A DNA stretch of 64,000 nucleotides, taken from the human T2T-CHM13v2.0 reference genome, Homo sapiens. The stretch is from assembly GCF_009914755.1 (NCBI RefSeq), contig NC_060925.1. One strand, 5' to 3'. Below are positions 18,667 through 64,000 of the stretch, piece by piece. How positions within the stretch are numbered: position 1 is the first letter of the stretch; the number at the start of each line of letters is the position of its first letter. The notes under the pieces were generated by a model that ran no database searches, had not been told where the DNA came from, and was given only the letters and a program-made list of their open reading frames with translations. The position numbers and the translations under genes were made by a program.

Positions 18667-19270
18667 TGTTGCGACTGATTACCATATAACGTCTCCTTTC
18701 CCCATAAGATTCCCAGCCCCTACTTAATCACTGCACACTGATCTCAGTACTGCTGTGAAGAGACTTTGCAGAGGTAATGAAAGCCCTAAATCAGTTGACC
18801 TTGAGACTCGGTGGGCCTGACCTAATGATGTGAGTCCTTTCAACGCAGAATTTTCTCTGGCTGGCAGCAGAAGGGGAATTAGAGAAATCTGTAGCATGAG
18901 AAGCCTTCCACATGCCATTACTGGCTTTGCCAGGGAGGTGGCCATGGGGCAAGGACCTGAGAACAGCCTCTAGGAGCCTGTCCATTCCTGGCCAATAGCT
19001 GACAAGAAAACGGGAACTTCAGTCCTACAACTGTGAGGAACTGAGCTCTGCAGACCACCTGAGTGAGCTTGAAAGGACGTTCTTCCCCAGAGTCTCTAGG
19101 TAAGAGCACAGCCCAGCTGACGCCTCGGTTTGCACCTTCTGAAACTGTGAGCAGAGAACCATGTTGAGCTCATAGGACTTCTTACCTACAGACTTGTGAG
19201 ATAATAAATGGTTGTGTTTTAAGCCACTAGGTTGTGGTCATTTGTTACTCAGCAATAAAAAGCTAATACA
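18667..19270 (+). mobile_element. MLT1E-type MaLR solo LTR
   Basis: gactttgcagaggtaat, cttcagtcctacaact, tgtgagataataaatggttgtgttttaagccacta, terminal cagcaataaaaagctaataca. Confidence 0.85.
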
Positions 19271-49089: not shown

Positions 49090-50000
49090 TGGAGATGTGT
49101 GATGGTAGAGAAGGAAGTCGAGAGTCCTTGCTTTGATATCTCTATTTCTACAGAGAATCAGGAGGTAAAATCACTAGAGGAGAAGTACTGGGATGGGAAG
49201 CTTGAGGACTGTTTGAAATAGTTCTTGAAGGAAATGGAAGAGGTTGCTATCCAGGGATATACTGACAATTCTTGAGGCACCATGGGGAAAGGCAGGCTGA
49301 GATCAGAAACCAAGAAGCTGTGGCACCAATATGAGAGACTATGGGGTTTTCTCCAGTAGAGCTTGAAGGTCTAGGTTTAGGATCAGAATAGGTAAATAGT
49401 TGAATGGATTAAGAGTTGGCTGATTGAGCATAGAGGAAAGACAAGAGGTAAGTTGATTGAGGATGTTAACAAGAAAGAGGTTAATGATGTAATTTGTGTT
49501 TTATGGGCTTGAAAAGTAAAGAACTGAAATCAAGAGGAGACAAATTTTGGAGAAAATTGGGATCAAGAAAGTGGTGCTCTGGATGAAATTTGAACAACCG
49601 ATGTTATTCAAGTTAGGGAGTGGTAGAATTAGAAGATTAGTAGGTAGTGACTGATGCAGGCATAGATGCTGGGATCCTTTAAATTAACAGTCTACAAAGT
49701 AGAGCAGTTCCCTGTGGATTGAGGTCCAGGGTGTGGCCATTAGTGTGAATTATTCCAGGGGAGTTAAAAATGGCTGGAATTGAAGAGGGAGGGAATTGAG
49801 ACAAAGTTGATGGAAGACTCTCTTTACAGGGAAACTGAAGCCACCCATGGTGGTCATAAAATCTGAATTAGAGCAATTGGCTGAACCAAATACAAAACCT
49901 TCAGTCAAGATGACTAGAATGTACACAGGTGCCAATGGGGAGAGGGAGAAGGAAACTCGCTAGATGCTTTAAGGGTCTACAGAGAAGATATTTACACAAT
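49090..50000 (-). mobile_element. L2 internal fragment
   Basis: Purine-rich antisense L2 ORF2-like sequence (gaggtccagggtgtggccat, gaaactgaagccaccca). Confidence 0.55.
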
Positions 50001-51082
50001 AGCAGGAAAAAAATGTCTAGAAAAGAGGACATCTTGGAATTCTGAAACATAAGGGAGGGAGAGCATGAGAAGGAAAAAATACGAGGACTTTGAAATGTGA
50101 AGAAGCTAAGATAGACTTATTGTCAAAGGGATTTTAGAGGTAGAAAGACACGACGGATCACCTAATTCAAACTTCTTGTTTCAAATGGTAAAGAGTGAGA
50201 GGGGCAAGCTATTCTCAAATTTATACCACTAGTTAGCAGAACCTAGGATTATTCATTCACTGGTTATTCATTATTAATTCATCAAATATTTATTGAGCAA
50301 CTAGTGTCAATCTTTAAGGATACCAACATGAATAAATCTCATTACCTGTCCTCAAGGAACTTATAGTATGGTGGAGAGAGGTGGACAAAATCCAAAATGT
50401 AATTACAATGTAATGATATAAAGGGTAGGAGAGGGCCTTACAAAGAATGCTTTGGAAGTTTGAAAATGAGCCTCATGCCTAGAGGGAAGGAGCAAGCAGA
50501 GTTGGTTGATTGTGGTATGGGTCCAGGTAGAATTGGAGCAATATAGCTAGCACATGCTAAATTTGAGCAAATTAGACAAAGATGCTTTTTCTTTCAGGCT
50601 AATGTGGCACCTAGCCAGGGCATAGAGCTCAGCAAATTGACCCTAAGCTGGATTTTCTCTAGTTCTTGCCTACTTTTCCTCAACCTTCTGAAATGTAAGT
50701 GGCAGTTCTGGGTAGGGGTAGGTAGAGTACCTGTTATCAGGGAAGACTTCACATAGGAGGTGGATTTAAACCATTCTTTGCTTTCAAGTCCAAAGCTCCA
50801 TTTAATTTCTGATAGCTGAAGAAGTTAACATCTTCTGCTCCACAAAGGAGGAACCTGAGCCATCTACTTAGAGGGAGGGCCTTGAGTAGTGTAGGAGAAT
50901 TAGAGAGTTGACAACTGTGGAAAACACTAGCAACTGTTCCCTCAAAGTTTTAAAACAGAAGAACCAGGGACAGAAGGTACTGTTATTAAATTTATATCAG
51001 AAGCAATTTTTAGTCTTTCAGTTCATCCAGCTGTGGTAGTCTATGATGCTTCTTGGCATCCTAAAGAAAGGGTGATACAGCA

Positions 51083-51155
51083 TCACTCTCTACTTGCTAT
51101 TCACCTATACTCTACTCTATCTTTATCATTTAGGTTTTCATTCATTTTTCAAAAG
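51083..51155 (+). repeat. 73-bp dispersed direct repeat, copy 1 (copy 2 at 52043-52115)
   Basis: The two copies align with only 2 mismatches at an offset of 960 bp. Confidence 0.97.
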
Positions 51156-51442
51156 GGCAGTAATTTGGAGACACTGTTGATCATAAATGGTAAAGTGGTT
51201 TGGACCTAAAGAAGAATTATAGTCTCTCTTCCTGGCTATGCAGGCATGGCCACAGAGCAGTTTTTCTTAAAGAAAATTGATTTAACTAAAATACACTTTA
51301 CCAGTGTGACTGTATAATTGCCTCTAAAACATCTCTATGGAATAGTAGGGTGGTGAATAGCCTAAAGAAAAAGGATATAATGTAATGAGAGAAACTAGAA
51401 GAAAGTGTTAACTGGCCAAAGCAAGACAATATTAGAAGCAAA

Positions 51443-51836
51443 CTATTAGTGAGAATAGATGTAGTAATGTGGTAAAACCTTTAAATCTCAGCAGCTTAAA
51501 ATATCAAAGGTTTATTTCTCTTGTTGCTGTATGTCGCACGTTGGCTAGAGCTTCTACTTCACATCATAACCTGGTCAGACATGCAGACTAAAGAAACCAT
51601 ATCATCTCCAGAACTACTGGTTGCTGAGGCAAAGGGAGAGAGAGAATGTGCAGTGTCTTGCACTGGGAATAGAATGTGTCTGTCCTCAAGTAGCACATGT
51701 CACTTCTGCTCAATTTTATTGGTCAAAGCAAGTCAGATGCCATGTTCAACTTCATGGAAGTAAGGAGGTACAATCCTGCTGTGTGCTGGTGAGGAGTAGA
51801 ATTAAAATATTTGGCATATAGAATTAAGACTATCAG
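51443..51836 (-). mobile_element. MLT1I/J-like LTR
   Basis: aaatctcagcagcttaaaatatcaaaggtttatttctc, tgtcacttctgctcaattttattggtcaaagcaagtca. Confidence 0.8.
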
Positions 51837-51859
51837 ACTTCTTACAGCATCTTTAATGC

Positions 51860-52340
51860 TGTTTCTCCCTTCATCAACCTACTCTATAAACTTCTATCAT
51901 AGTAATCTTCCTAACACATGGAATTCCTCTACCTAAAATCCTTCACAGATCCTCTTTACCTTATGAATTACACCCTGAATCTTTAGCTTCACATTGCAGG
52001 TTTCTTACCGTCTATTCCCAGGAAAATCTGGGATGTCGACCCTCACTCTCTACTCGCTATTCAGCTATACTCTACTCTATCTTTATCATTTAGGTTTTCA
52101 TTCATTTTTCAAAAGTAAGCCCCACAAAGCAAAGGGTTTTTCAGTTCTTCCCTTCAACATCAGGATCTTGTCAGTGTTTTTCAAAGCATGCGTTACATAA
52201 TAGAAGTTTATACCCATGCCTCTTTCCCATTATATGGGAAGTACTTTGAGGACAGAAACTATCTTGTCATTATACGGTTCCCTTTGTTAAGCTTTGAGCG
52301 CAGTGCTTGATGTATGGCAGGTATTCAGTTCATTGAAGGA
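51860..52340 (+). mobile_element. Degraded L2 3' fragment containing copy 2 of the 73-bp repeat
   Basis: cctctacctaaaatccttca, ctttgaggacagaaactatcttgt, gcagtgcttgatgtatggcaggtattca. Confidence 0.6.
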
Positions 52341-55300
52341 TCTTACGTTGTCTTTCTTGATTTGATCTGGTTGAACCTTAATCTACTCTCTTCTTCATGC
52401 CTTGTTTGTAGCCCCCAGGGATGTTCATGGTCAAAGTAGAGGTATCCTGTTGGTGCTCACTATTAATGTTCTGAGTCAGATGTTTGATACTGGGAGCTGA
52501 AATGTTTTTAACTGTTATTAAAAATGGTGCTATTAAAAATAAATAGGGAATATAATTGGTTGGAAAGTCATGAGGAAAGGAGGAGAAAGAAATAGAGAGA
52601 AACTGTAATACTCCTTTCTAAGAAAATCAGAATGATAACTACCATCAGACTAATTTTCATAGATAATTGCACTTTAAATTTTGTTTTCGTCACTAGACTC
52701 TGGATATTTAGAGAGAACGGAGCACATTGAGTCATCTTTATATAAAGTACATACACCATGGTGCTCAATACAAATGAGTTTCTTTTCTATTTTCTGTTAA
52801 ATCTTGGCTTCTCCCTGGTTATGTATGTAGGTTGTGGTCATATGGGGCTAAGTCAGAATGTTCATTTTATAAAATTAGACATGTCAGAGACCTAAGAAAC
52901 TATTTACCTTTTCTTATCTTATTGGTGAAGAAACTGAGATCCAGAGAGAAGAAGCAACATTTTCCTTTCAAGTATGCTATGTGAATATCCACAGATTTCA
53001 TTGACCTCTTTCCTTCCCAAACTTCTAAAATGCAAAATGATAATGATCACTAATAATTGGATTCATTAGTGGGATCAGATTAATCACTTTTGTGAGTTTA
53101 TTGAGTAGATGTTAAGTGTTAGCTACCTTGCAGATTGCTGGAAATGGAAAGAAAAAGGACACAATTTCCTTTATATAATTCCTCTGAGTTTAGTTTACAA
53201 TGTGTAAGGTTCCCTGCTGGGTGCTGAGTGGGAGGCTATTCACCACCCTACTGTTCCATAGAGATGTTTTAGAGGCAGTTATACAGTCACATTGGTAAAG
53301 TGTATTTTAGTTAAATCGATTTGAATGGGGGTTTATTTATTGAATTTTCTAGTTGGTGGTTTAACAATTTCAAGATAAATTAGTTTTTTAAAATTAACAA
53401 TAGGACATGATGATAAACTGTATAATGAGACTGGACATTCATTTTAAGCATAATTTCAAAACAAAATGAACTTACCATAGGGGAACATTCAAAAGCCAAA
53501 TACTTTTGACTGCTAATCTCTGCTTTTCTGAATTGAAAGCCTAGGTTTGGGAATATAACACTCTGTTGGTGAGTTTCTGGACAGAAGCAGCAGTAGCAGA
53601 AATAACAACAGTAATAACATCAACAAGACCTCACAATTTTTTTTTTAATCTTAAAAGAGTTCTATATTAATCTATGTGTTTTTTAATTGGGAAAAGAGGA
53701 AGAGCTATATGATAATCAGCATATTCATTTAGAATCAGGGAAGGGCAGAAGGACTAGAAAAACACTCAAAGAAATGTTATATTAGCACTGATCTCAATCA
53801 TAGATAAAATCCAAATGTGATTCTAAGGGTTTTGTTTCACAGACAGCAAAGGGGAGCTCCTACAAAGGGAGAGAGATGTTGAAGGTGAAAATGAGGTGGT
53901 GGAACTACTCGGGAAATTAAAACTGTAATAAGGCACCAGTGGGTTGTGTTTCTGTCCCTTTGCAATAACCGAATGTGAACAAAAGGGTCAGAGGGCAAAG
54001 GCTGAAGTTCAGCTTAGAAAATGAGGGCTGTCATGCGGCTTCAGGCTGTGCATATGGCAGGTGGAACCAGGCTGACAAATTAGACAGCTCTGGACAACCT
54101 TCATGGTTGAAAATCGGGACTCTTCAGTTTGCTACAGAAGAGAGGGTATAGCATTTGTAGGAAAGAGGAACAGCACCATTTCACAAAGGTTTTAATATGA
54201 GCAACATGCTAGCTCTGCTTGGAGGAGACGGAAACGGAGAAAGAATTAGGAAAGTGGGTGTTTGGTGTGAGACTGAGAGTGCAAAAGGCAAAAATGAAAA
54301 TAAAGAAGAAAAGAGGAATGAGAGAGAGAGAAACAGAGTGTGAGAAGGTAGAGATAAAAATGATGTGAATGAGAGCCAACATGAGCAAGATAGGCTGTGA
54401 GAGGAGAAATAAATGGAAAGAGCTAGCAAAAATGTGTTGGGAGGAGGAGAGCACTAGACAAAGATTAGAGATTTAGAGATAAGGAGAGAGGGTCAGAGGA
54501 AAGAAGACCGGAGAAAGCCAAAAAAAAAAAAAAAAGAAAGCAGGCGCTCCACTGTAAATTCAGGCCTGTTTCAGCATATACAATTTCTAGGGAGCTGCTA
54601 AGAGCTATCTCCTGTCAGCTGGTGCCAGGACATGCTGGGAGTAATGGAGGGACAGTCAGAAGCCAGGAGTGAGCACTGGGTTCAGGCACACAGGTAGCTC
54701 TGGTTGATTGAGCTGAGCCCGATTGAGCTGAGCCCTTGTAATGACAGAGGAGGAACTGCCTCCATATGCTAAAACCAGACGATTATTCTTTATTTTTTAC
54801 TTACAAGCTATCTTTGTTTCATGTGCTCTCAAAAGCCATTAAAATGCTTGTAGCAAAGCTTCATGGTTGCTATGTGCACTGGTCATAATATTCAGGCCAA
54901 GGGGTTATTATAAGGGAGGGAGATAACAGGTTTTCCCAAGTGGAGATTTAAGTAATACTTAACAGTGTGGGCCATCTGGTGAATTCCATGGAAAACAAAT
55001 TGCCTTTCATAAGCATTTTTACTATCTCTACGCCTTGCTAATTTCGGTGGACAAACTATTCCTTAAGGGGTTTTGCACAGACAAAGAATAGAGGGCAGCT
55101 TCTCGGTCCTTTCCTTTGCTTCTCTAGGCTCCAGAAATGTCTTTATTTTCCAGCTTGTCAGAGCCACAGTGGTCAGGATCATTTGCTCTCTTTAAGAGTC
55201 CAGGTGACATCCACTATAGTCTTAAAAGTATTGATTGAACACCTACTATGTGATCCAATAATGTTGGATGCTATGAGAAGGCATAGAATTATAAGAAATA

Positions 55301-55417
55301 GTCTTGTGGACTGTGTCAGTGAGTATAAATTTACACCTTTGAATGTTCTATATCTTCATAGGGACTTGGCATATACACAGATGTATGCATTTTTCATAAT
55401 CAAATACAAATACACAG

Positions 55418-55700
55418 TTAGGATTGTACATTTCATTGTATTTAAATTTTACTTCAAAGGAAAAACAACTATAAATAAATATTGAGGCTTATTTACTGCC
55501 ATGCATACTGAAATATTAAGGGTGAAGGGTACTGATATCTGCAATTTACATTAAAATGCATCCATAAGAAAATGGGCTGATGAATGGAGAAAGGAATGAA
55601 TCAGTGAATAAATACGTGATAAAACAAGAGCAGTAAAACATTGAAATCCAGGTTGTGGGTATATAGGTGTTCACTGTAAAATTCAACTTGAACTGCTTAA
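55418..55700 (+). mobile_element. L1MC/ME-like 3' end fragment
   Basis: tgaaatattaagggtgaag...tgatatctgcaatttac, gtgggtatataggtgttcactgtaaaatt. Confidence 0.7.
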
Positions 55701-55834
55701 TTTGCTTCCTGAAATAATGAGTAAAAAATTAAAAGCTATTGATGTGGCATTAATTCTAGGAGTTAAGAAAAGAAAGTGGTGGGGTAAGAAATGGAGAAAG
55801 AGATGTGGACAGAAAGAAGATAATAAAGGGTAAT

Positions 55835-56353
55835 TCTATTAGTTATCTATTGCTGCACAACAAATTACTCTAAAACATTGGCTTAAAACACCACATTTTT
55901 ACTAATCTCATCATTTCTATGTCAGGAATCCAGAAATGCTTAACTGGGTAGTTCTGGCCCAGAGTCTTTCCTGAGGTTGCAGTTAGGATGTGTTCAGGTA
56001 GTTTAGTCATCTGAAGCCTTCCCTGGGGCTGGAGGATCTGCTTCCAAAATGGTTCACTCACATGGCTTTTGGCAGGAAACCTCAGTTCCTCACTACGTGG
56101 GTCTCTCCATTTGCTGCTTGAGTGTCCTCACCACATGGCAGCTGGCTTTCCCCAGAGTGAGTGATCCAAGACAGGGAGCAAGAAGGAGATGCCATGCCTT
56201 TTACAAGCTAGTCACACACCATCACTGTTGCCATATTTGATTTGTTATATGCAAGTCACTAAGTTCTGCCTATGCTTAAAAAGAAGGGAATTAGGCTTCA
56301 CCTTTTGTAGGGAGAAATTCTGAAAATTTTTGGGTATGTTTTAAAACCACTAT
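55835..56353 (-). mobile_element. MLT1F-type MaLR solo LTR (complete)
   Basis: tattagttatctattgctgc...ctggggctggaggatctgcttccaaaatgg...catggcagctggctttccccagagtgagtgatccaaga...ttttaaaaccacta. Confidence 0.85.
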
Positions 56354-56639
56354 AAAAGCTTAGGTGAGATTTTAGTAGAATTGCTTGCTATCATAAGCAG
56401 ATGGTGAAGGAATCTTAAGTTTCAAGGGTTGCTTAGACCCATGTCTGAGGAATGAAAGACAACAGAATTAGGAAAAACTGTAACAAAGACACCGACTTGA
56501 TCTTTGTGAAGCCAGGTAGGAAGGCAAGGCTGAAGAATCATGCCAGAAAAACCTCCTCATCTAGATGATTACAGAATTCCCACTGAAGCATCTTGAGTTA
56601 GGGTTAGGTGAGGTTGTGAAAAAGTTTAACCTTGGCTCT

Positions 56640-56889
56640 TTAAAGAATTGAGATGAAATTCACATGACATAAAATTCACCATTTTAATCATTGCAAAAGC
56701 ATACAGTGCAAAACTATATAATTCAATGTTTTCAGTATATTCACAATGTTGTGGAATCATCACCACTATCTCATTTCAGAGAGTCATGCCAAAAGAAACC
56801 ATCTAATCATTTAGTAATCACTCCCAGTTTTCCTCTTTTCCCCATCTCCTGGCAACCATTAATCTATTTTCTGTCTCTATGGATTTGCC
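56640..56889 (-). mobile_element. L1MB 3' end fragment
   Basis: attgagatgaaattcacatgacataaaattcaccatttt...ctggcaaccattaatctattttctgtctctatggatttgcc. Confidence 0.85.
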
Positions 56890-57404
56890 ATGACTATGTC
56901 GTTTGGGGTCAAGAAGTAAAAGGGAACCAAGGTCAGACTACCTGTGAAGAATGGCTTGACAAGGATGGGAAGGTGGGAATTGACAAGTCCAAGAGAAATG
57001 GTAGAAGAAAATAATATCCATAGTAACAGAAAAGATGGAATAATGTAAGTAAATTTACATAAGTAGTTTGAGGCCATATTAAAAACTTGAACACAGAGAA
57101 TCTGAATGGTTCTACGCTTAGATGTTACCTGAAAATTAAGGATAATTATAGAGCTTCACTGGACTCTATATTAAAATTTGCTTTGAAAGCACATCTCCAC
57201 ATTATCCTTAGTACTTGAGGATAGATACAGCTATTTAACTGTTCAAAACTATTTAGCTATTCAAAATTGGATTTGTTTTTCCAATACGAAATGTCATCTG
57301 GTTATTTTAGGAGCATAGATAAGAATTTGGTGGAGAACAACTGACTAGGAAGATTGAGATTAAAAGTCTAGTGTTATTTGTCAGTGCAGTGATTGTCCAC
57401 ATGA

Positions 57405-57529
57405 TATAAAGTTGGGTGTGCACAGCAGCACTCCATCATGAAATGGAAGTGGTATAGACGTGATCAGGTCCGAACAGGTCCTGAAGCACAAGTGAGTTCC
57501 AAGAAGTGACCCAAATGCCCATGGTCCCC
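57405..57529 (+). mobile_element. Isolated ERVL internal (pol) fragment
   Basis: Translates KVGCAQQHSIMKWKWYRRDQVRTGPE and, after a frameshift, EVTQMPMVP; resembles ERVL pol QQHSIIKWKWYI as recalled. Confidence 0.8.
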
Positions 57530-57586
57530 AGTTAAGAAATAAGCTGAGTTAAGAAATTACACATAATTCATAGTGTCATTGCTGTT

Positions 57587-58494
57587 AAAATTTTTCAGAA
57601 TTTCTCCCTATGAAAGGTGAAGGCTAATTCCCTTCTTTTAAATGTAAAGGTGTAAATTTATACTCACTGACAGTCCACAAGGTGATTTCTTATAATTCTA
57701 TGCCTCTCTCATAGCATCTAACATTATTGGATCGCATAGTAGGTGCTCAATCAATACCTTAATGGTATTGGTGGATGTCACCTGGACTGTTAAAGAGAGC
57801 AGATGATCCTGACCACTGTGGCTCTGACAAGCTGAAAAACACAGACATTTTTGGAGCCTTGAGAAACAAAAGAAAGGACAGAGAAGCTTGCCTTCTATCC
57901 TGATCACTAAACTACCTGAGCACATCCTGACTGCAACCTCATGACAGACCCTGGGCCAGAACTACCCAGTTAAGCATTTCTGGATTCCTGACATAGAAAC
58001 TATGAGATAGTAAATGTGTGATTTTTTAAGCCAATATGTTTTCAAGTAATTTGTTATGCAGCAATAGATAACTAATACAACTATCCCTTATTCTTTCTGT
58101 CCACATCTCTCCCCATTTCTTACCCCATCACTTTCTTTTCTTAACTCCTGGAATTAGTGCTACAGCAATAGCTTTTAATTTTTTACTCATTACTTCAAGA
58201 AGTAAATCAAGCATCTCAAGTTGAATTTTACAGTGAACACCTATATACCCACCACCTGGATTTTAATGTATTATTGCTCTTTATCATATAATTATCCATT
58301 GATTCATTCCTTTCTCCAGCCATCAACCCACCTTCTTTTGAATGCATTTTAAATTGCAGACATCAGTACCCTTCACCCTAAATATTTCATCCTAAATATT
58401 TCAGTATGTGAGACAGTAAATAAGCTTCAATATTTATTTATAGTTATTTTTATTTTGAAGTAAAATTTAAATACAATGAAATACATGATTCTAA
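57587..58494 (-). repeat. Rearranged inverted duplicate of 55088-56330
   Basis: 57587-57641 = reverse complement of 56276-56330; 57646-57898 = rc of 55088-55340; 57901-58494 = rc of 55418-56013. Confidence 0.95.
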
Positions 58495-58499
58495 AGGTC

Positions 58500-58710
58500 A
58501 AGTATATCTCTGGATCTGATCCTCTTAGCTTTGGATTTCAGCTCTGTGACCTCAAACGACTTAACCTCTTTCTGCCTTAGTTTCCTCTTTTGTAACATAG
58601 GCGTAATCATGCGCTTATTTTTAGCAATGTTAGGTGGACTGAATAAGTCAACATATTAAAGACCTGCAAACAGTGCCTGGCACATTCTAAGCTCTCATAG
58701 ATGTTTACCC
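58500..58710 (+). mobile_element. MIR SINE
   Basis: tgtgacctcaaacgacttaacctctttctgccttagtttcctc...aacagtgcctggcacattctaag. Confidence 0.8.
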
Positions 58711-58711
58711 T

Positions 58712-58747
58712 ATCACTTCTTGGCTTTTTGGCTAAGATCAAGTATAG
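58712..58747 (+). pseudogene. RNU2: U2 snRNA 5' fragment retrocopy (nt 1-36)
   Basis: atcacttcttggctttttggctaagatcaagtatag versus U2 ATCGCTTCTCGGCCTTTTGGCTAAGATCAAGTGTAG (32/36). The symbol names the parent. Confidence 0.9.
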
Positions 58748-59723
58748 GTGTTTGCACGGATAAACTTATTATTAAAGGAAGCACACTCTTTGGGGGAAAC
58801 TAAAGAGATGCAATGTTTCTGTAATCCAATTATTTTAACATATAAAATCCTGCATCTTTTATAGTAGGTCTCTGGGCAGATGGAGTTTTAACTGTTGACA
58901 GTGTAAGACTGTGTGAATGATGCTACTGCAGATTCAGTCACAGTGTCAATCTGCTGACAGTAACTGTTTCCCTTTGACATTTCTCAAAACCAGGACACCA
59001 TCTTGAATGCTTCAAGTGTGAGAAAGAATTCCTCAAAGAGACTATAAGCTTTAAAAATATTAATCTGCATCTGGAATCACTCCTGTGAACATCACATTTT
59101 ATGATACAGATATCTCCTGGGATCTCTGCATCATCAACTTTTTAAAATATTGAATCTATATAATGGAGAAAACATTGCTCTATAAAACATAAAACTTTGC
59201 TGTCAAGAATGGGGGAAAGAAAAGAAATTGGTGAAAGATTTAATAACTGTGGATCCTATGGCTAGAGGCAGATATTCAGCCTTTGAAAAATATTTAAGCT
59301 TGGCTTAAGTGGATTGGCATGAGTACTGCCAACAGGTTACATGACCGGAGTACCAGAGGTAAGCTGCACCATCAAACCAGGTAGAATATGTGAAAGAATG
59401 AGCTCCTTTCTCCCTGGTTCTCAGAAATGCTGCAGTAATGAAGCAGTGACCTACCAACATCCATTGTATGTCTCAAGATCAAAGTCATTTCTTAAAAGAA
59501 AATCCAAGTTATTCTTTAAAAAGTACCATGAGAAATGAAGATAATCAGTTTGGCATGGTCACTGGCCAAAGAGGTTGTGAATAAACACAGCCTGTCTACC
59601 AACTGACTGTCAGTCCTTCACCAGGATATGGAAGTTTCAACCCACTCCACTATTCTGTTCCTCCTGCACTAGAGATGGATGCTAATTTACTAACCAAATT
59701 TGTAAAGAATTTAATGAAATAGG

Positions 59724-59823
59724 GAGAGAGAGAGAGAGAGAGAGAAATGAATGTACTCGTAAAACCCAAGCCAAAAGCTTCCTTCATGACTTGCTCCCAG
59801 AATCAGGATATAGGATGTGGCAA

Positions 59824-59870
<47 letters not shown>

Positions 59871-59933
59871 CAGTCATTGGGCACATCCTATCCGTCTCTC
59901 TCTCTCTGTCTCTGTCTCTCTCTCTCTCTACAT

Positions 59934-59992
<59 letters not shown>
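59724..59992. repeat. Compound microsatellite cluster (GA)n, (TG)18, (TC)n, (TA)25
   Basis: (GA)n 59724-59745, (TG)18 59831-59866, (TC)n about 59895-59929, (TA)25 59937-59986. Confidence 0.97.
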
Positions 59993-59993
<1 letters not shown>

Positions 59994-60009
59994 GTCATGC
60001 TGTCTATGC

Positions 60010-60059
60010 AGATGGGTGCCAAAGTCTGGACAGTTGTGTTGAGACTTTGGCACCCATCT
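60010..60059. repeat. Perfect 18-bp inverted repeat with 14-nt loop
   Basis: agatgggtgccaaagtct (60010-60027) and agactttggcacccatct (60042-60059). Confidence 0.97.
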
Positions 60060-62089
60060 ACAATGGCCATTCTTCTGGCCTTTAAACAAGCCTGCCCTGT
60101 TGATAACCTTCACTGATAATGGCAAGCTACATTTTCTAGCCAGGGACCTCTGTTTTTACTGAGGACAACTGACCACTGTCCCACCCACTGCTTGTTTTTG
60201 GCCTGCTTATCCCCTGCTTTGATGTTGTTTTGGAAAGACTGGCTTTCTGAGCTTAGGATGTAAGACCATTCCATAATGCCCCCTCCTGTTCTGATCTTGT
60301 ATCTTCTATTTCCTCTTCTACCTCTCTGGGTGTAGGGTGATTACGTAATTTTTCTGACTCTTGGAATTCAGTCTTTTTCTTTAGATGTCAGGTTAGTTCA
60401 CCTCTCTGGTTCAGGTTTCCTTGTAATTTAATATAGTAATCCCTGCCCTTCCCCAGACTACTAAAAGCCAATGTCCATTGGTGGCTAGGTCAGTACTGAC
60501 CTCCTGAGGGAGGAATTTTAAAATGGGCCACTATTCAAACAGACATCTAGAAAATCTGTTCTGTCTTGTACAAGTATAAGCAATGTTAAATTGGTCCTTG
60601 GAAGAGTTTCAGAGACAAAGAAAATAATATAAATAGTCTGTTTAGTGGCTTTCTTTCTGAGATATATGAGGGTTTAGGTACCTATTTATATGATTGCCAA
60701 GTTTACTGACTGAGTTGAAGTCAGTGCAGTAAGAAATAACAAGACCTTTATCACAGAACAATGATGTGGAATGGAGAGATTTATTTTGATTGAGGTTAAT
60801 ATTTAGAGGGCAGAATCATAAGGCATGTACCTAAGTTACTGAGAATTAACCATAGATGTCATATAGTTCATCTGAGTCAGGGTGAATAGACAAACTGATC
60901 ACTTAAAATGATACTTAGATAGCATATTGAAAAGACTGACATTTAAACTCCATTTAATGCTGTTGCTGAGGCCTTAGAATGAAGGCCATAAAAATGTACC
61001 TATATGAGGTAGTCTGAAGAAGCCATAATGCTTTTTAGGACACTCATTTGGTATGTTAAAAATGAGTTTTACTAATGAAAAGTGACTCCACTCTGTGGTT
61101 AATCATGTTAAAGAAATGTTCCACATAATCACTGTGAAATTGAATGTTGGTAAATAAGCTGCTTAATATTTATTTAAATAATTTCATAAATGCAGAGGAA
61201 TGAGAAATAAGACATTAGGTCATGATACATAGATTTGGGCAAAGAAGACCTTCATTTCAAAGGGCCAGTGTTTAACTGCAGATATTCCAGAAGCTGTTCT
61301 AAATTCAAAGTATAGTCTTAGTTGTCCAGTATCTTTTTATAAAGTTTATGTGGCCAAATCAGGGCATGCAATTTATGTATGAATGCTATTAGTTTTGCTG
61401 GAACAATTTAAAGGGAAGATCGGAGTTTAGACATTTGCACCGTCTTTGAGGTGCATTCAGGGATCCTGTGGCCTTGTGTGTAGCACAGCATTCTGGAGGG
61501 TGGGGCACTGACTGCCCCGTCCCCTCTTTTTTTTTTTTTTTTTCAAAAACAAGTGATTCCCTTGACTTTTAGACGGAGCCAGATATCATACAACTTTCTC
61601 TATCAAGAAATAAAAGGGGTCTGGATGAGACTTTGAAGGCACTCTTTAAGGGAAATGTTAATCACCCTGATCATGAGCTAAGAATTGTGCCACCCATTAA
61701 TAACTAGGAAAAGTCTCCTGGCAAGGTGTCCATATAAGTAATTAAGACTTTTTAGAATATGATACATCCCATCACTTCCTATCAGTTGAAATGCATAGGC
61801 AATAAATGCAAATAACACATATTATCATTTCTTCAGTATAAATGCTTTGCAGAGAGCTATATTGGAAAACATGAGGTACACACACATATATATTCTATAA
61901 TCAAAAAAGGATTATATGTAAAAAGGTCCAATGTATATAAGCATGGAATTGCCAAGAGTTTTGACTATGGTCATTGAAAAATGTAATATTTAAGGAGTTG
62001 TCATAGATCCATAAGACAGTCTTTGAAAACCATGGAGACTAGAAGAGCTTCTCTGATGGGCAAAAAGACATTAAAAAGAGGTGAAGATG

Positions 62090-62320
62090 AGGCTAGCATA
62101 TTTACAGGTGGCTAAGTGACTAGTATGTGCCTGTGGCTTTACTTATATTATCGTAATCTTTCAAATTACCCCACAAAGAGGCTCTTATTTCATTTTATAC
62201 ATAAGAAAACTGACAGTCAGGAAAGTTAGTTAATTTGTCTAAGTTTGCAGAGCTAGTAAATGGCAGAGCAGGGATTTAAATCTAAGTCTGTTGGACTCAC
62301 AGCCCATAAGCTTTCCAGTA
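62090..62320 (-). mobile_element. MIR SINE
   Basis: cattttatacataagaaaactga...agagctagtaaatggcagagcagggatttaaatctaagtctg. Confidence 0.8.
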
Positions 62321-63732
62321 TGCAAAACAAAATGATGTTGAATATATAAACGAACAGTATTATTTCTGTTTCCTTCTGCTAATACGTGTGACTAATGGGC
62401 TTCTAAGTATATGCCAGAGATGATCAAGTTGCTGCTGGGCCTCTAGTGAAGAAGGTGTGCTGGACCTGTGTGTAATTATAAATGTATTCATTCTGCACAT
62501 ATTTCCTGAGGCTCTTCCATGTTTGTGATATTTTGTAGAGTTCTGACAGGTGATGCAAAGGTGACTGCATCTACAACTTAAATACTGCATGCAGGACGGA
62601 TCATTGAATTGTAAGAATGACTTAACAGCAAAGACTCAGGAAAGACTAGTACAGTAAGCAAGAGCATCTAGGGTGGAGGCATGTGTTGCATATGCATCAC
62701 AATGAAGATGGTGACCTTTTAGTCTGAAAATACAAAGGCTGGGAGGGGCTTGGGGGGATACCAGATGAGAAGTCAGTTGACCATTTAGACTTTTCTTTCC
62801 AAGTAAATACATTTAATACTTCAGCATCCCCTTTTGTGAGGATCCTGGGAAACTAACTTTATTTTTGGTGTCTTGGTTTTCTTATTTGTATCACAGGCAT
62901 AATAATATCTTCTTTACTTATCTAACGTAATTATTTTAAGACTCAACTTGAGAAACTCAGAAAGTTTTCAGTTCTAAACTAATAAAAGGAAGCATCAACT
63001 CTATGAAATTAGAATTAGTCCATAGGGACCTTTAGATCTAATTGGGGTGATATGAGAAGTAGACAAATACAGTGTATTATGATCCAACAGCTCCAAATTA
63101 TAGGGATCAGATTAAAGGCTATGATAGTCCAGTGGGGAATTCATATCTAACTGGGAACTGAGCATGGTCCTTTGCTTAGAATTAGATATACTATTTATTT
63201 TAAACCCCAAAAGGCTTGGTAACATGTTATGGGCAAATGTTTATTAAATGTGAGATGTTTACCAAATGATGACATTGTAGGTTTCTGATTCTAAGTCATT
63301 TAATCTGGATGTAAGCAGCAAATATATTATGAAATTCCCATAAAGGAAATCCAGAGTTTAAATGATGATCTGACTTTGGGGCATTCTTATTTTTATTTTT
63401 ATTTTTTTGCAAGCAAGAAAAAAGGTATGGGAAGTGAGCCACAAGCTGTTTTAGGAAGGAGGTTGTGTATGGTAAAGGTGCATCCCTGCTGCATTTCAAT
63501 ATTTAAAACCCGAGGAGACCTATGGAGACCACAGACAGATGTAGCATTCTGGTTATTTTCTTTTTATTGCTTTCTGGAAGGTATTCATCTTGCAGTGTCT
63601 TACAGTACCATAAGGTACTCTCTACTATCCAGTATCCCATTACCAGGGCATTTTCAATTGCTAAAAACTCCCAGAAACAACTTCATGTTAACTGAGGCTC
63701 ATAAAGATGAGATGTCAGCCCTATAATATGTT

Positions 63733-63822
63733 TCTCCCATCCAAGTACAAAACAGGCCTGACCCTGCTTAGCTTTCGAGATCAGACGAGATCAGGCACCT
63801 TCAGAGTGGTATGGCTGTAGAC
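63733..63822 (-). pseudogene. RNA5S: 5S rRNA retropseudogene, 3'-truncated (nt 1 to ~90)
   Basis: Reverse strand gtctacagccataccactctgaaggtgcctgatctcgtctgatctcgaaagctaagcagggtcaggcctgttttgtacttggatgggaga matches 5S; TSD c(c/t)tataatatgtttct at 63720-63735 and 63823-63838. The symbol names the parent family. Confidence 0.97.
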
Positions 63823-64000
63823 CTTATAATATGTTTCTAAAGCAACTTCTGAATCATCAGAATATGATTAATTATGTTCAGAATCAACTTTATGCCAAAA
63901 ATGTTGTGTTCTAAATAGCTCATAACAGGTAGTTTAGATTATTTCAATTCTGTGTTTCTAATGATCAGTTTTTTGCCTGTACTGAATAAAGGAAGTTACT

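What the first reader, a model, noticed from the sequence alone, without database searches (positions are those of the whole stretch)
55088..58494. Shuffled three-segment inverted duplication, a likely fossil of serial template switching
Seen: three non-contiguous donor blocks, A (55088-55340), B (55418-56013) and C (56276-56330), reappear inverted and joined end to end at 57587-58494 in the order C', A', B'. A simple inversion would give C', B', A' and keep the gaps. Identity is roughly 85-90% by eye, with one 64-bp stretch of A differing at only 2 sites. The donor side holds a complete MLT1F LTR while the copy holds two disjoint pieces of it, so the left side is the original and the event post-dates the LTR. 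The A'/B' junction falls where both donors share ttc. Inference: a fixed germline FoSTeS/MMBIR-type event. Any transcript crossing it could fold into a long, Alu-independent dsRNA (potential ADAR or Dicer substrate), and the high-identity patch may reflect arm-to-arm conversion.
Basis: partly seen in the sequence, partly recalled or inferred. Interest (0 to 1): 0.8.

Follow-up and report, generated by a model that had tools for sequence, protein, structure and literature searches.

The report
Ancient shuffled inverted duplication fossil
A 0.9-kb stretch of human chromosome 1 is an old, inverted, cut-and-reordered copy of three nearby pieces of DNA, a real but apparently functionless scar of a known kind of DNA copying error.

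Summary
Blocks A (55085-55340), B (55418-56011) and C (56276-56331) recur inverted and abutted at 57587-58494 in the order C'-A'-B'.

- **Same age:** all three blocks are equally diverged, 93 mismatches in 887 aligned sites (10.5%), homogeneity P=0.90.
- **Not separate repeat insertions:** block A and the middle of B occur only twice in the whole genome. The rest of B and C belong to two old dispersed repeats whose other copies are only 68-85% identical.
- **Direction:** the left side is the source, because its LTR is complete and collinear while the copy has A' where the LTR's middle 264 bp should be.
- **Mechanism:** one copy-paste event with serial template switches is the best reading (about 0.6). 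A simple inverted duplication followed by a second templated replacement cannot be excluded without outgroup genomes.
the junction microhomology is weak, with a 7% chance expectation. The "conversion patch" is not significant, P=0.83. A:A' and B:B' cannot pair together on one transcript, and no transcript is annotated here.

I estimate an age of very roughly 30-60 My. This is a known kind of event with no sign of function. Interest is low to moderate.

The parts
55085..55340 (+). Donor block A (256 bp). Apart from its copy it is single-copy in the genome.
   Evidence: 26 mismatches in 254 sites. The genome search found 2 of 2 candidates, itself and 57646-57901.
55341..55417 (+). Donor gap g1 (77 bp), not copied.
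   Evidence: The sensitive self-comparison finds no counterpart on the copy side.
55418..56011 (+). Donor block B (594 bp). It is a composite of a dispersed repeat (about 55409-55689), single-copy sequence (55690-55830) and the first 175 bp of an LTR (55837-56011).
   Evidence: 62 mismatches in 577 sites, 7 indel events. Partial hits fall only on query positions 1-272 or 408-581, at 68-85% identity. The middle part has 2 of 2 genome places.
55837..56354 (+). Complete solo LTR of an old dispersed family (MLT1/MaLR-like by recollection; the name was not tested). It spans the end of B, gap g2 and C.
   Evidence: Many of the 40 scored genomic copies align collinearly to query positions 38-555 of 55800-56400, at 68-77% identity.
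56012..56275 (+). Donor gap g2 (264 bp), the middle of the LTR. It was not copied, and A' plus the 3-nt filler (259 bp) occupies its place in the copy.
56276..56331 (+). Donor block C (56 bp), near the 3' end of the LTR.
   Evidence: 5 mismatches in 56 sites.
56332..57395 (.). Spacer between the arms. It is ordinary sequence with an old dispersed repeat at about 56638-56890.
   Evidence: The genome search with 56355-57395 gave only hits of 68-77% identity to query positions 283-536.
57396..57584 (+). Isolated fragment (about 190 bp) of an ERV-L-type pol gene (RNase H region), ending 2 bp from the copy's left junction. It is either target DNA or a possible fourth segment; this is unresolved.
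   Evidence: Full-length family members carry RT_RNaseH_2, RT_RNaseH and dUTPase above Pfam cut-offs, and rve below its cut-off. No other homology to this family lies in 50000-64000.
57587..57642 (-). C', the inverted copy of C.
57643..57645 (.). 3-nt filler between C' and A', of unknown origin.
   Evidence: Junction display.
57646..57901 (-). A', the inverted copy of A, sitting between the two LTR pieces of the copy.
57902..58494 (-). B', the inverted copy of B. It carries 14 extra bases where the donor has none (near donor 55509).
58495..58700 (-). Right flank of the copy, an old SINE-like dispersed repeat (MIR-like by recollection). Paralog matches end near 58539.

Best explanation
This is a fixed, ancient, local copy-and-paste rearrangement. 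It is neither a gene nor a mobile element.

A DNA end at the site now bounded by 57586 and 58495 was extended by copying the opposite strand of sequence 1.3-3.4 kb away. It did so in three separate stretches: donor 56331 down to 56276, then 55340 down to 55085, then 56011 down to 55418. Synthesis then resumed on the original template. The same path read the other way round is equally possible.

The result is an inverted 908-bp patchwork, C'-A'-B', with the donors left intact. This is what serial template switching during replication or repair synthesis predicts (FoSTeS/MMBIR, or multi-invasion synthesis-dependent repair).

Shown: the structure, the direction from donor to copy, the equal age of the three blocks, and that they are not independent repeat insertions.

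Inferred: that all four junctions arose in one event, and that the process was replicative.

From K2P=0.114 and recalled primate substitution rates of 1.0-2.2e-9 per site per year, the event is very roughly 30-60 My old. Nothing indicates a present function.
For: - Three blocks, all inverted, abut with 0-nt and 3-nt joints.
- Divergence is homogeneous: 26/254, 62/577 and 5/56 mismatches, chi-square P=0.90. Inside B the repeat, unique and LTR parts show 11.8%, 9.4% and 10.2%. Pooled, 93/887 = 10.5%, K2P 0.114.
- Block A and B's middle occur only in the two arms, 2 of 2 candidates each.
- No third copy of the composite exists among 1960 candidates, of which 40 were scored.
- The donor LTR is complete and collinear with family members, while the copy holds two disjoint parts of it with A' in between.
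- Donors are retained, so this is a copy-number gain.
- There is no target-site duplication (longest shared direct word 4 nt), no poly-A tail, and no GT-AG pattern at the block borders on either strand. An RNA-mediated or transposon-mediated copy is therefore unlikely.
- Passages of PMC5120786 say that blunt joints and small insertions of 2-3 bp occur in rearrangements attributed to replicative mechanisms, and that iterative template switches are the distinguishing feature. Passages of PMC2621351 describe discontinuous and inverted duplications produced by multiple template switches.
Against: - There is no perfect microhomology at either internal junction. The only shared word, GAA (ttc on the + strand), sits one base inside the B/A joint, and such a match arises in 7% of random position pairs. 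About 10% later divergence could have erased or created such signals.
- Equal divergence cannot separate one event from two events close in time. The 95% CI is 6.8-14.6% for A and 8.3-13.6% for B.
- No outgroup genome was available, so no empty site and no intermediate state could be examined.
- Two attempts to recover the empty site from paralogs gave no answer (best P=0.07).
- The sequence alone cannot tell replicative switching from end-joining of free fragments.
Confidence: 0.6

Rival explanations
1. Two steps. First, a simple inverted duplication of 55418-56331 (B-g2-C, 914 bp) was placed at 57.6-58.5 kb. Later, a second templated deletion-insertion replaced the copy's 264-bp LTR middle with an inverted copy of A plus 3 nt (259 bp).
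For: It needs the same number of junctions (2+2) as the one-step model. A' sits exactly where g2' would be and is nearly the same length, 259 against 264 bp. The divergence CIs of A and B overlap widely. The abstract of PMC4352052, seen only in the listing, states that inverted repeats can facilitate further rearrangement.
Against: It needs two rare events at the same 0.9-kb spot, both inverted and both drawing on the same 1.25-kb donor region. A is not measurably younger than B and C (10.2% against 10.6%, Fisher P=1.0). No homology links the end of B to the start of A that would guide a repeat-mediated switch.
Confidence: 0.25
2. Non-replicative repair. Three free DNA fragments derived from a sister chromatid or homologue were captured and ligated into a double-strand break by end joining.
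For: The joints are blunt or carry a 3-nt filler and have no clear microhomology. That pattern is typical of end joining, according to the discussion passage of PMC5120786.
Against: All three fragments have the same inverted orientation and come from one 1.25-kb neighbourhood with the donors intact. Random capture predicts mixed orientations (chance about 1 in 4 that the other two match the first) and has no reason to favour close neighbours.
Confidence: 0.08
3. The whole of 55085-56331 was duplicated in inverted form (C'-g2'-B'-g1'-A'), and later deletions and a local transposition produced C'-A'-B'.
For: Only that all three blocks lie in one contiguous donor span.
Against: It needs at least three further breakpoints that remove exactly g1' and g2' and also swap A' with B'. 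No trace of g1' or g2' remains.
Confidence: 0.04
4. The blocks are independent insertions of repeat-family members, or an assembly artefact.
For: Parts of B and C do belong to dispersed repeat families.
Against: A and B's middle are found only in the two arms. The arms are about 89.5% identical while other family members are 68-85%. B runs collinearly across repeat, unique sequence and LTR in both arms. About 10% divergence with 10 indel events is not what an assembly duplication looks like.
Confidence: 0.02

Closest known systems
FoSTeS/MMBIR complex genomic rearrangements (Hastings et al. 2009, PMC2621351; complex insertions, PMC5120786)
   Same: Discontinuous duplicated segments, inverted orientation, donors retained, several joints in one allele, and blunt joints or small insertions (passages read).
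   Different: Those cases are recent, mostly pathogenic and tens of kb to Mb in size, and the model stresses 2-5 bp of microhomology. This one is 56-594 bp per segment, lies within 3.4 kb, is fixed and about 10% diverged, and shows no clear microhomology.
Short-range template switch mutations, four-point model (Loytynoja & Goldman 2017, PMC5453318; great-ape survey PMC7954356, seen in the listing only)
   Same: A nearby sequence copied in reverse-complement orientation within a replication-fork-scale distance, creating an inverted repeat and hairpin potential; these are known as fixed evolutionary events (passages read).
   Different: That model describes a single switch-and-return that yields one inverted fragment, detected there as short mutation clusters. 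Here three separate fragments of up to 594 bp are joined out of order, which needs at least three switch steps.
Inverted dispersed duplication or complex SV classes in population catalogues
   Same: A copy-number gain inserted nearby in inverted orientation.
   Different: The internal reordering of three sub-segments is an added complexity, and this copy is ancient rather than polymorphic. Polymorphism was not tested.

Membership tests
FoSTeS/MMBIR-type complex rearrangement | Two or more templated segments joined out of reference order or orientation in one allele | tested here: met
   C'-A'-B', all inverted and abutted.
FoSTeS/MMBIR-type complex rearrangement | Copy-number gain with donors left intact | tested here: met
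   Donor blocks are present, and the donor LTR is complete and collinear.
FoSTeS/MMBIR-type complex rearrangement | Microhomology of 2-5 bp at junctions | tested here: inconclusive
   The perfect run is 0 nt at both internal joints. A shared GAA lies 1 nt inside the B/A joint, with a chance expectation of 7%. One joint has a 3-nt filler. About 10% later divergence blurs the signal.
FoSTeS/MMBIR-type complex rearrangement | All junctions formed in a single event | not testable with these tools
   Only indirect support: homogeneous divergence, P=0.90. This needs outgroup genomes.
Short template switch (four-point model) | One switch-and-return giving a single reverse-complement fragment | tested here: not met
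   Three non-contiguous fragments in shuffled order. The model is as described in PMC5453318.
Retroposed or L1-mediated copy | Poly-A tail, target-site duplication, and splice-like block borders | tested here: not met
   No poly-A, longest flanking direct word 4 nt, and no GT-AG pairs at the borders on either strand.
Independent insertions of repeat-family members | Each block is a family member with many genomic copies, and the arms are no more alike than other copies | tested here: not met
   A and B's middle each have 2 of 2 genome places. The arms are about 89.5% identical against 68-85% for other copies.
   No repeat library was available. Shown only: a complete member, about 518 bp, of an old dispersed family.
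   Three copies share only about 340 bp with one another. 0 of 18 stop-free stretches next to them matched an L1 protein family.

The most novel reading that the evidence does not exclude
The inserted chain has four segments rather than three. The isolated 190-bp ERV-L-type pol fragment (57396-57584) ends 2 bp from C' and has no other family homology within 14 kb. It would then be a further templated piece, copied from a distant locus or from retroelement RNA or cDNA in the same event. That would make this a fixed germline chain mixing local inverted templates with a trans template. A separate possibility is that, if the region is transcribed, the B:B' and C:C' arms give an Alu-independent dsRNA of about 590 bp plus 56 bp.
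Probability: 0.12. Interest if true: 0.45.

Novelty: new member of a known kind. Interest (0 to 1): 0.3.

Why it matters
It is a clean, fully resolved old example of a multi-segment templated insertion that became fixed in the human lineage. Events of this kind are mostly studied as fresh pathogenic or cancer rearrangements. It could serve as a test case for methods that look for complex template-switch fossils in genome alignments.

It also shows that shuffling has a structural cost: two of the three arm pairs cannot form helices at the same time on one transcript.

It lies in a gene-poor stretch with no annotated transcript over it. No biological consequence is expected, and nothing here opens a long-standing question.

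Tried and rejected
1. **Gene conversion patch.** Rejected. The lowest mismatch count in any 64-column window (2) is reached in 83% of permutations, and the longest perfect run (49) in 31%.
2. **Empty site from paralogs of the right flank.** Alignments of four SINE-like paralogs stop at query position 260-261, about 45 bp before the junction. No answer.
3. **Empty site from locus L023.** This locus shares the ERV-L-type segment up to window 57584. The anchored comparison of what precedes it with the window's right flank gave P=0.07-0.96. Not significant.
4. **My own first guess that the left flank continues a MIR.** Withdrawn. That sequence is part of the ERV-L-type segment.
5. **RNA-mediated origin (scrambled or back-spliced transcript copied by reverse transcriptase).** No splice-site pairs, no poly-A and no target-site duplication.
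6. **L1 identity of B's left repeat.** Not confirmed.
7. **A third copy elsewhere in the genome as the true source.** None was found. The tool scores only the best candidates and skips very common words, so weak copies could be missed.
9. **Rfam over 53-61 kb.** Nothing inside the arms.
Full report
**Observation.** In 54000-59500 the repeat finder reports 10 inverted pairs, and all 10 lie inside three blocks. BLAST of the region against itself gives three inverted matches (the sensitive run extends B):
- A: 55085-55340 against 57901-57646, 88.4% over 258 columns, E=2e-89.
- B: 55418-56011 against 58494-57902, 84.4% over 610 columns with gaps, E=1e-168.
- C: 56276-56331 against 57642-57587, 91.1% over 56 columns, E=7e-14.

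The sensitive comparison of 52000-57100 with 57101-62000 found no further block. The next hit was 48 columns at 75%, E=0.001, in low-complexity sequence.

On the + strand the copy reads C' (57587-57642), three filler bases, A' (57646-57901) and B' (57902-58494). The donor stretches 55341-55417 and 56012-56275 have no counterpart in the copy.

**Not a set of independent repeats.** The window's own genome (3.1 Gb, 24 contigs) could be searched.
- Block A has 2 of 2 candidate places, itself and its copy.
- The middle of B (55690-55830) also has 2 of 2.
- With all of B as query, 611 candidates were seen and 40 scored. Only the two arms match along the whole length. The other 38 match either query positions 1-272 or 408-581, at 68-85% identity.
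- With the whole 908-bp copy as query (1960 candidates, 40 scored), the matches were itself, the three donor blocks, and 38 places that match only query positions 327-503, at 76-80%.

B is therefore a collinear composite of a dispersed repeat, single-copy DNA and the start of an LTR, and the composite exists only in these two arms. The tool scores only the best candidates and skips very common words, so weak extra copies cannot be excluded.

**Which side is the original.** With 55800-56400 as query, many of the 40 scored family members align collinearly over query positions 38 to about 555 (for example 38-551, 38-555 and 47-544) at 68-77% identity. The donor therefore holds a complete element of about 518 bp (55837 to about 56354). 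The copy matches only query positions 1-212 (B's end, which includes the LTR's first 175 bp) and 477-532 (C). A' plus 3 nt (259 bp) sits where the middle 264 bp should be. The left side is the source, and the event is younger than the LTR. The label 'L1' for B's left part is also unverified. Three genomic copies share only about 340 bp with one another. None of the 18 stop-free stretches next to them that I sent (of 32 listed) hit an L1 protein family; one sub-threshold Enkurin hit looks like chance.

**Age and homogeneity.** Mismatches are 26/254 (A), 62/577 (B) and 5/56 (C), with homogeneity P=0.90. Within B the repeat, unique and LTR parts show 11.8%, 9.4% and 10.2%. Only 6 aligned sites are in a CpG context. 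Pooled, 93/887 = 10.5% (95% CI 8.5-12.7%), K2P 0.114 and ts/tv 2.1. There are 3 indel events in A, 7 in B and none in C, including 14 bases present only in the copy arm. With recalled substitution rates of 1.0-2.2e-9 per site per year, K/2µ gives 26-57 My. I read this as very roughly 30-60 My, near or before the split of Old World and New World monkeys. The rates come from recall and the date is an inference.

**Junctions.** In donor orientation the copy reads right flank | B | A | ACA | C | left flank. Neither internal joint has a perfect microhomology run. At the B/A joint both donors carry GAA (ttc on the + strand) one base inside the breakpoint. The same criterion is met by 7% of random position pairs in the region. 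The flanks share no direct word longer than 4 nt. There is no poly-A tail, and the block borders carry no GT-AG pairs on either strand. An RNA-mediated or transposon-mediated copy is therefore unlikely, and microhomology neither supports nor refutes a replicative origin. Passages of PMC5120786 note that blunt joints and small insertions of 2-3 bp are seen in rearrangements attributed to replicative mechanisms, and that iterative template switching is their distinguishing feature. PMC2621351 describes discontinuous and inverted duplications arising from multiple switches.

**Mechanism.** The simplest path is a 3' end at the 57586/58495 site that copied the opposite strand nearby in three stretches (C, then A, then B, or the reverse order) and then returned. 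That makes four joints in one event. The main rival has the same number of joints split over two events: an inverted duplication of B-g2-C, then replacement of g2' by A'. Equal divergence favours one event, but A's CI (6.8-14.6%) is too wide to exclude a second event soon after the first. Capture of free fragments by end joining fits the blunt joints, but it does not explain why all three pieces are inverted and come from one 1.25-kb neighbourhood. I put the single-event reading at about 0.6, the two-step reading at 0.25, end-joining capture at 0.08, and the remainder lower.

**Flanks.** The right flank is an old SINE-like repeat whose paralog matches end near 58539. The left flank is more curious. 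57396-57584 matches the pol RNase H region of a long element family, at 84-87% identity over about 125 bp. Dispersed copies of that family share more than 3.4 kb with one another. Their open frames carry RT_RNaseH_2 (42.1 bits), RT_RNaseH (32.9) and dUTPase (41.7) above the Pfam cut-offs, and rve (28.2) below its cut-off. This is an ERV-L-type endogenous retrovirus. No other homology to this family lies in 50000-64000. The fragment ends 2 bp from C'. Its last 54 bp are shared only with one locus on contig 19 (47/54 identical) and partly with a group of mutually similar loci, which are 85-87% identical to one another over about 1-2.5 kb. It may be target DNA truncated by the event, or a fourth templated piece. 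Two attempts to settle this through paralogous 'empty sites' failed (best P=0.07).

A 64-column stretch with 2 differences does exist in A, but one also exists in B, and 83% of permutations do as well. The longest perfect run (49) is matched in 31% of permutations. There is thus no evidence for arm-to-arm conversion.

On dsRNA, the arms would pair strongly. Duplex energies are -386, -769 and -77 kcal/mol, against -84, -156 and -15 for shuffled partners. But the order A B C ... C' A' B' makes A:A' cross B:B'. The minimum-energy fold of 55085-58494 has 534 B:B' pairs, 53 C:C' pairs and 0 A:A' pairs. The hub's gene table lists no transcript over 55-58.5 kb, and Rfam finds nothing in the arms. The dsRNA idea is physically possible but has no support.

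**Comparison and verdict.** The closest known kinds are FoSTeS/MMBIR complex rearrangements (same logic; much larger, recent, and with stress on microhomology) and short-range template-switch mutations (same inverted local copying, fixed in evolution; one fragment only, PMC5453318). This locus lies between them in scale and is a new member of a known kind. I did not search for the locus itself in print and make no claim about that. It is real and neatly resolved, has no sign of function, and is of low to moderate interest.

Noticed in passing
window 57396-57584 (+): An isolated fragment of about 190 bp from an ERV-L-type pol gene (RNase H region) ends 2 bp from the copy's left junction. No other homology to that family lies within 50-64 kb. 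Its last 54 bp are shared only with a locus on contig 19 and partly with a group of mutually similar loci.
   Followed up: partly
window 58712-58834 (+): A U2 snRNA-like pseudogene fragment scores 42.4 bits in Rfam, below the gathering score of 46. Its first 37 nt or so match many genomic places at 88-97% identity.
   Followed up: no
window 59925-60065: A self-complementary low-complexity tract shows up as perfect self-inverted matches. It gives sub-threshold hits to the mir-297, mir-1277 and mir-3688 models on both strands. It looks like a simple repeat rather than a gene.
   Followed up: no
window 19175-19268 (-): This is another, partial member of the same LTR family as 55837-56354, 70% identical over 96 columns.
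   Followed up: no
window about 58390-58416: The copy arm carries 14 bases that are absent from the donor near 55509. By eye they repeat the neighbouring sequence, which suggests a small tandem duplication after the event.
   Followed up: no
window 56638-56890: An old dispersed repeat lies in the spacer between the arms. Many genomic copies match it at 68-77% identity. The family was not identified.
   Followed up: no
loci L022, L024, L025, L026: The best matches to the ERV-L-type fragment lie in loci that are 85-87% identical to one another over about 1-2.5 kb. Two of them lie in opposite orientation on contig 24. They appear to be copies of one duplicated segment.
   Followed up: no
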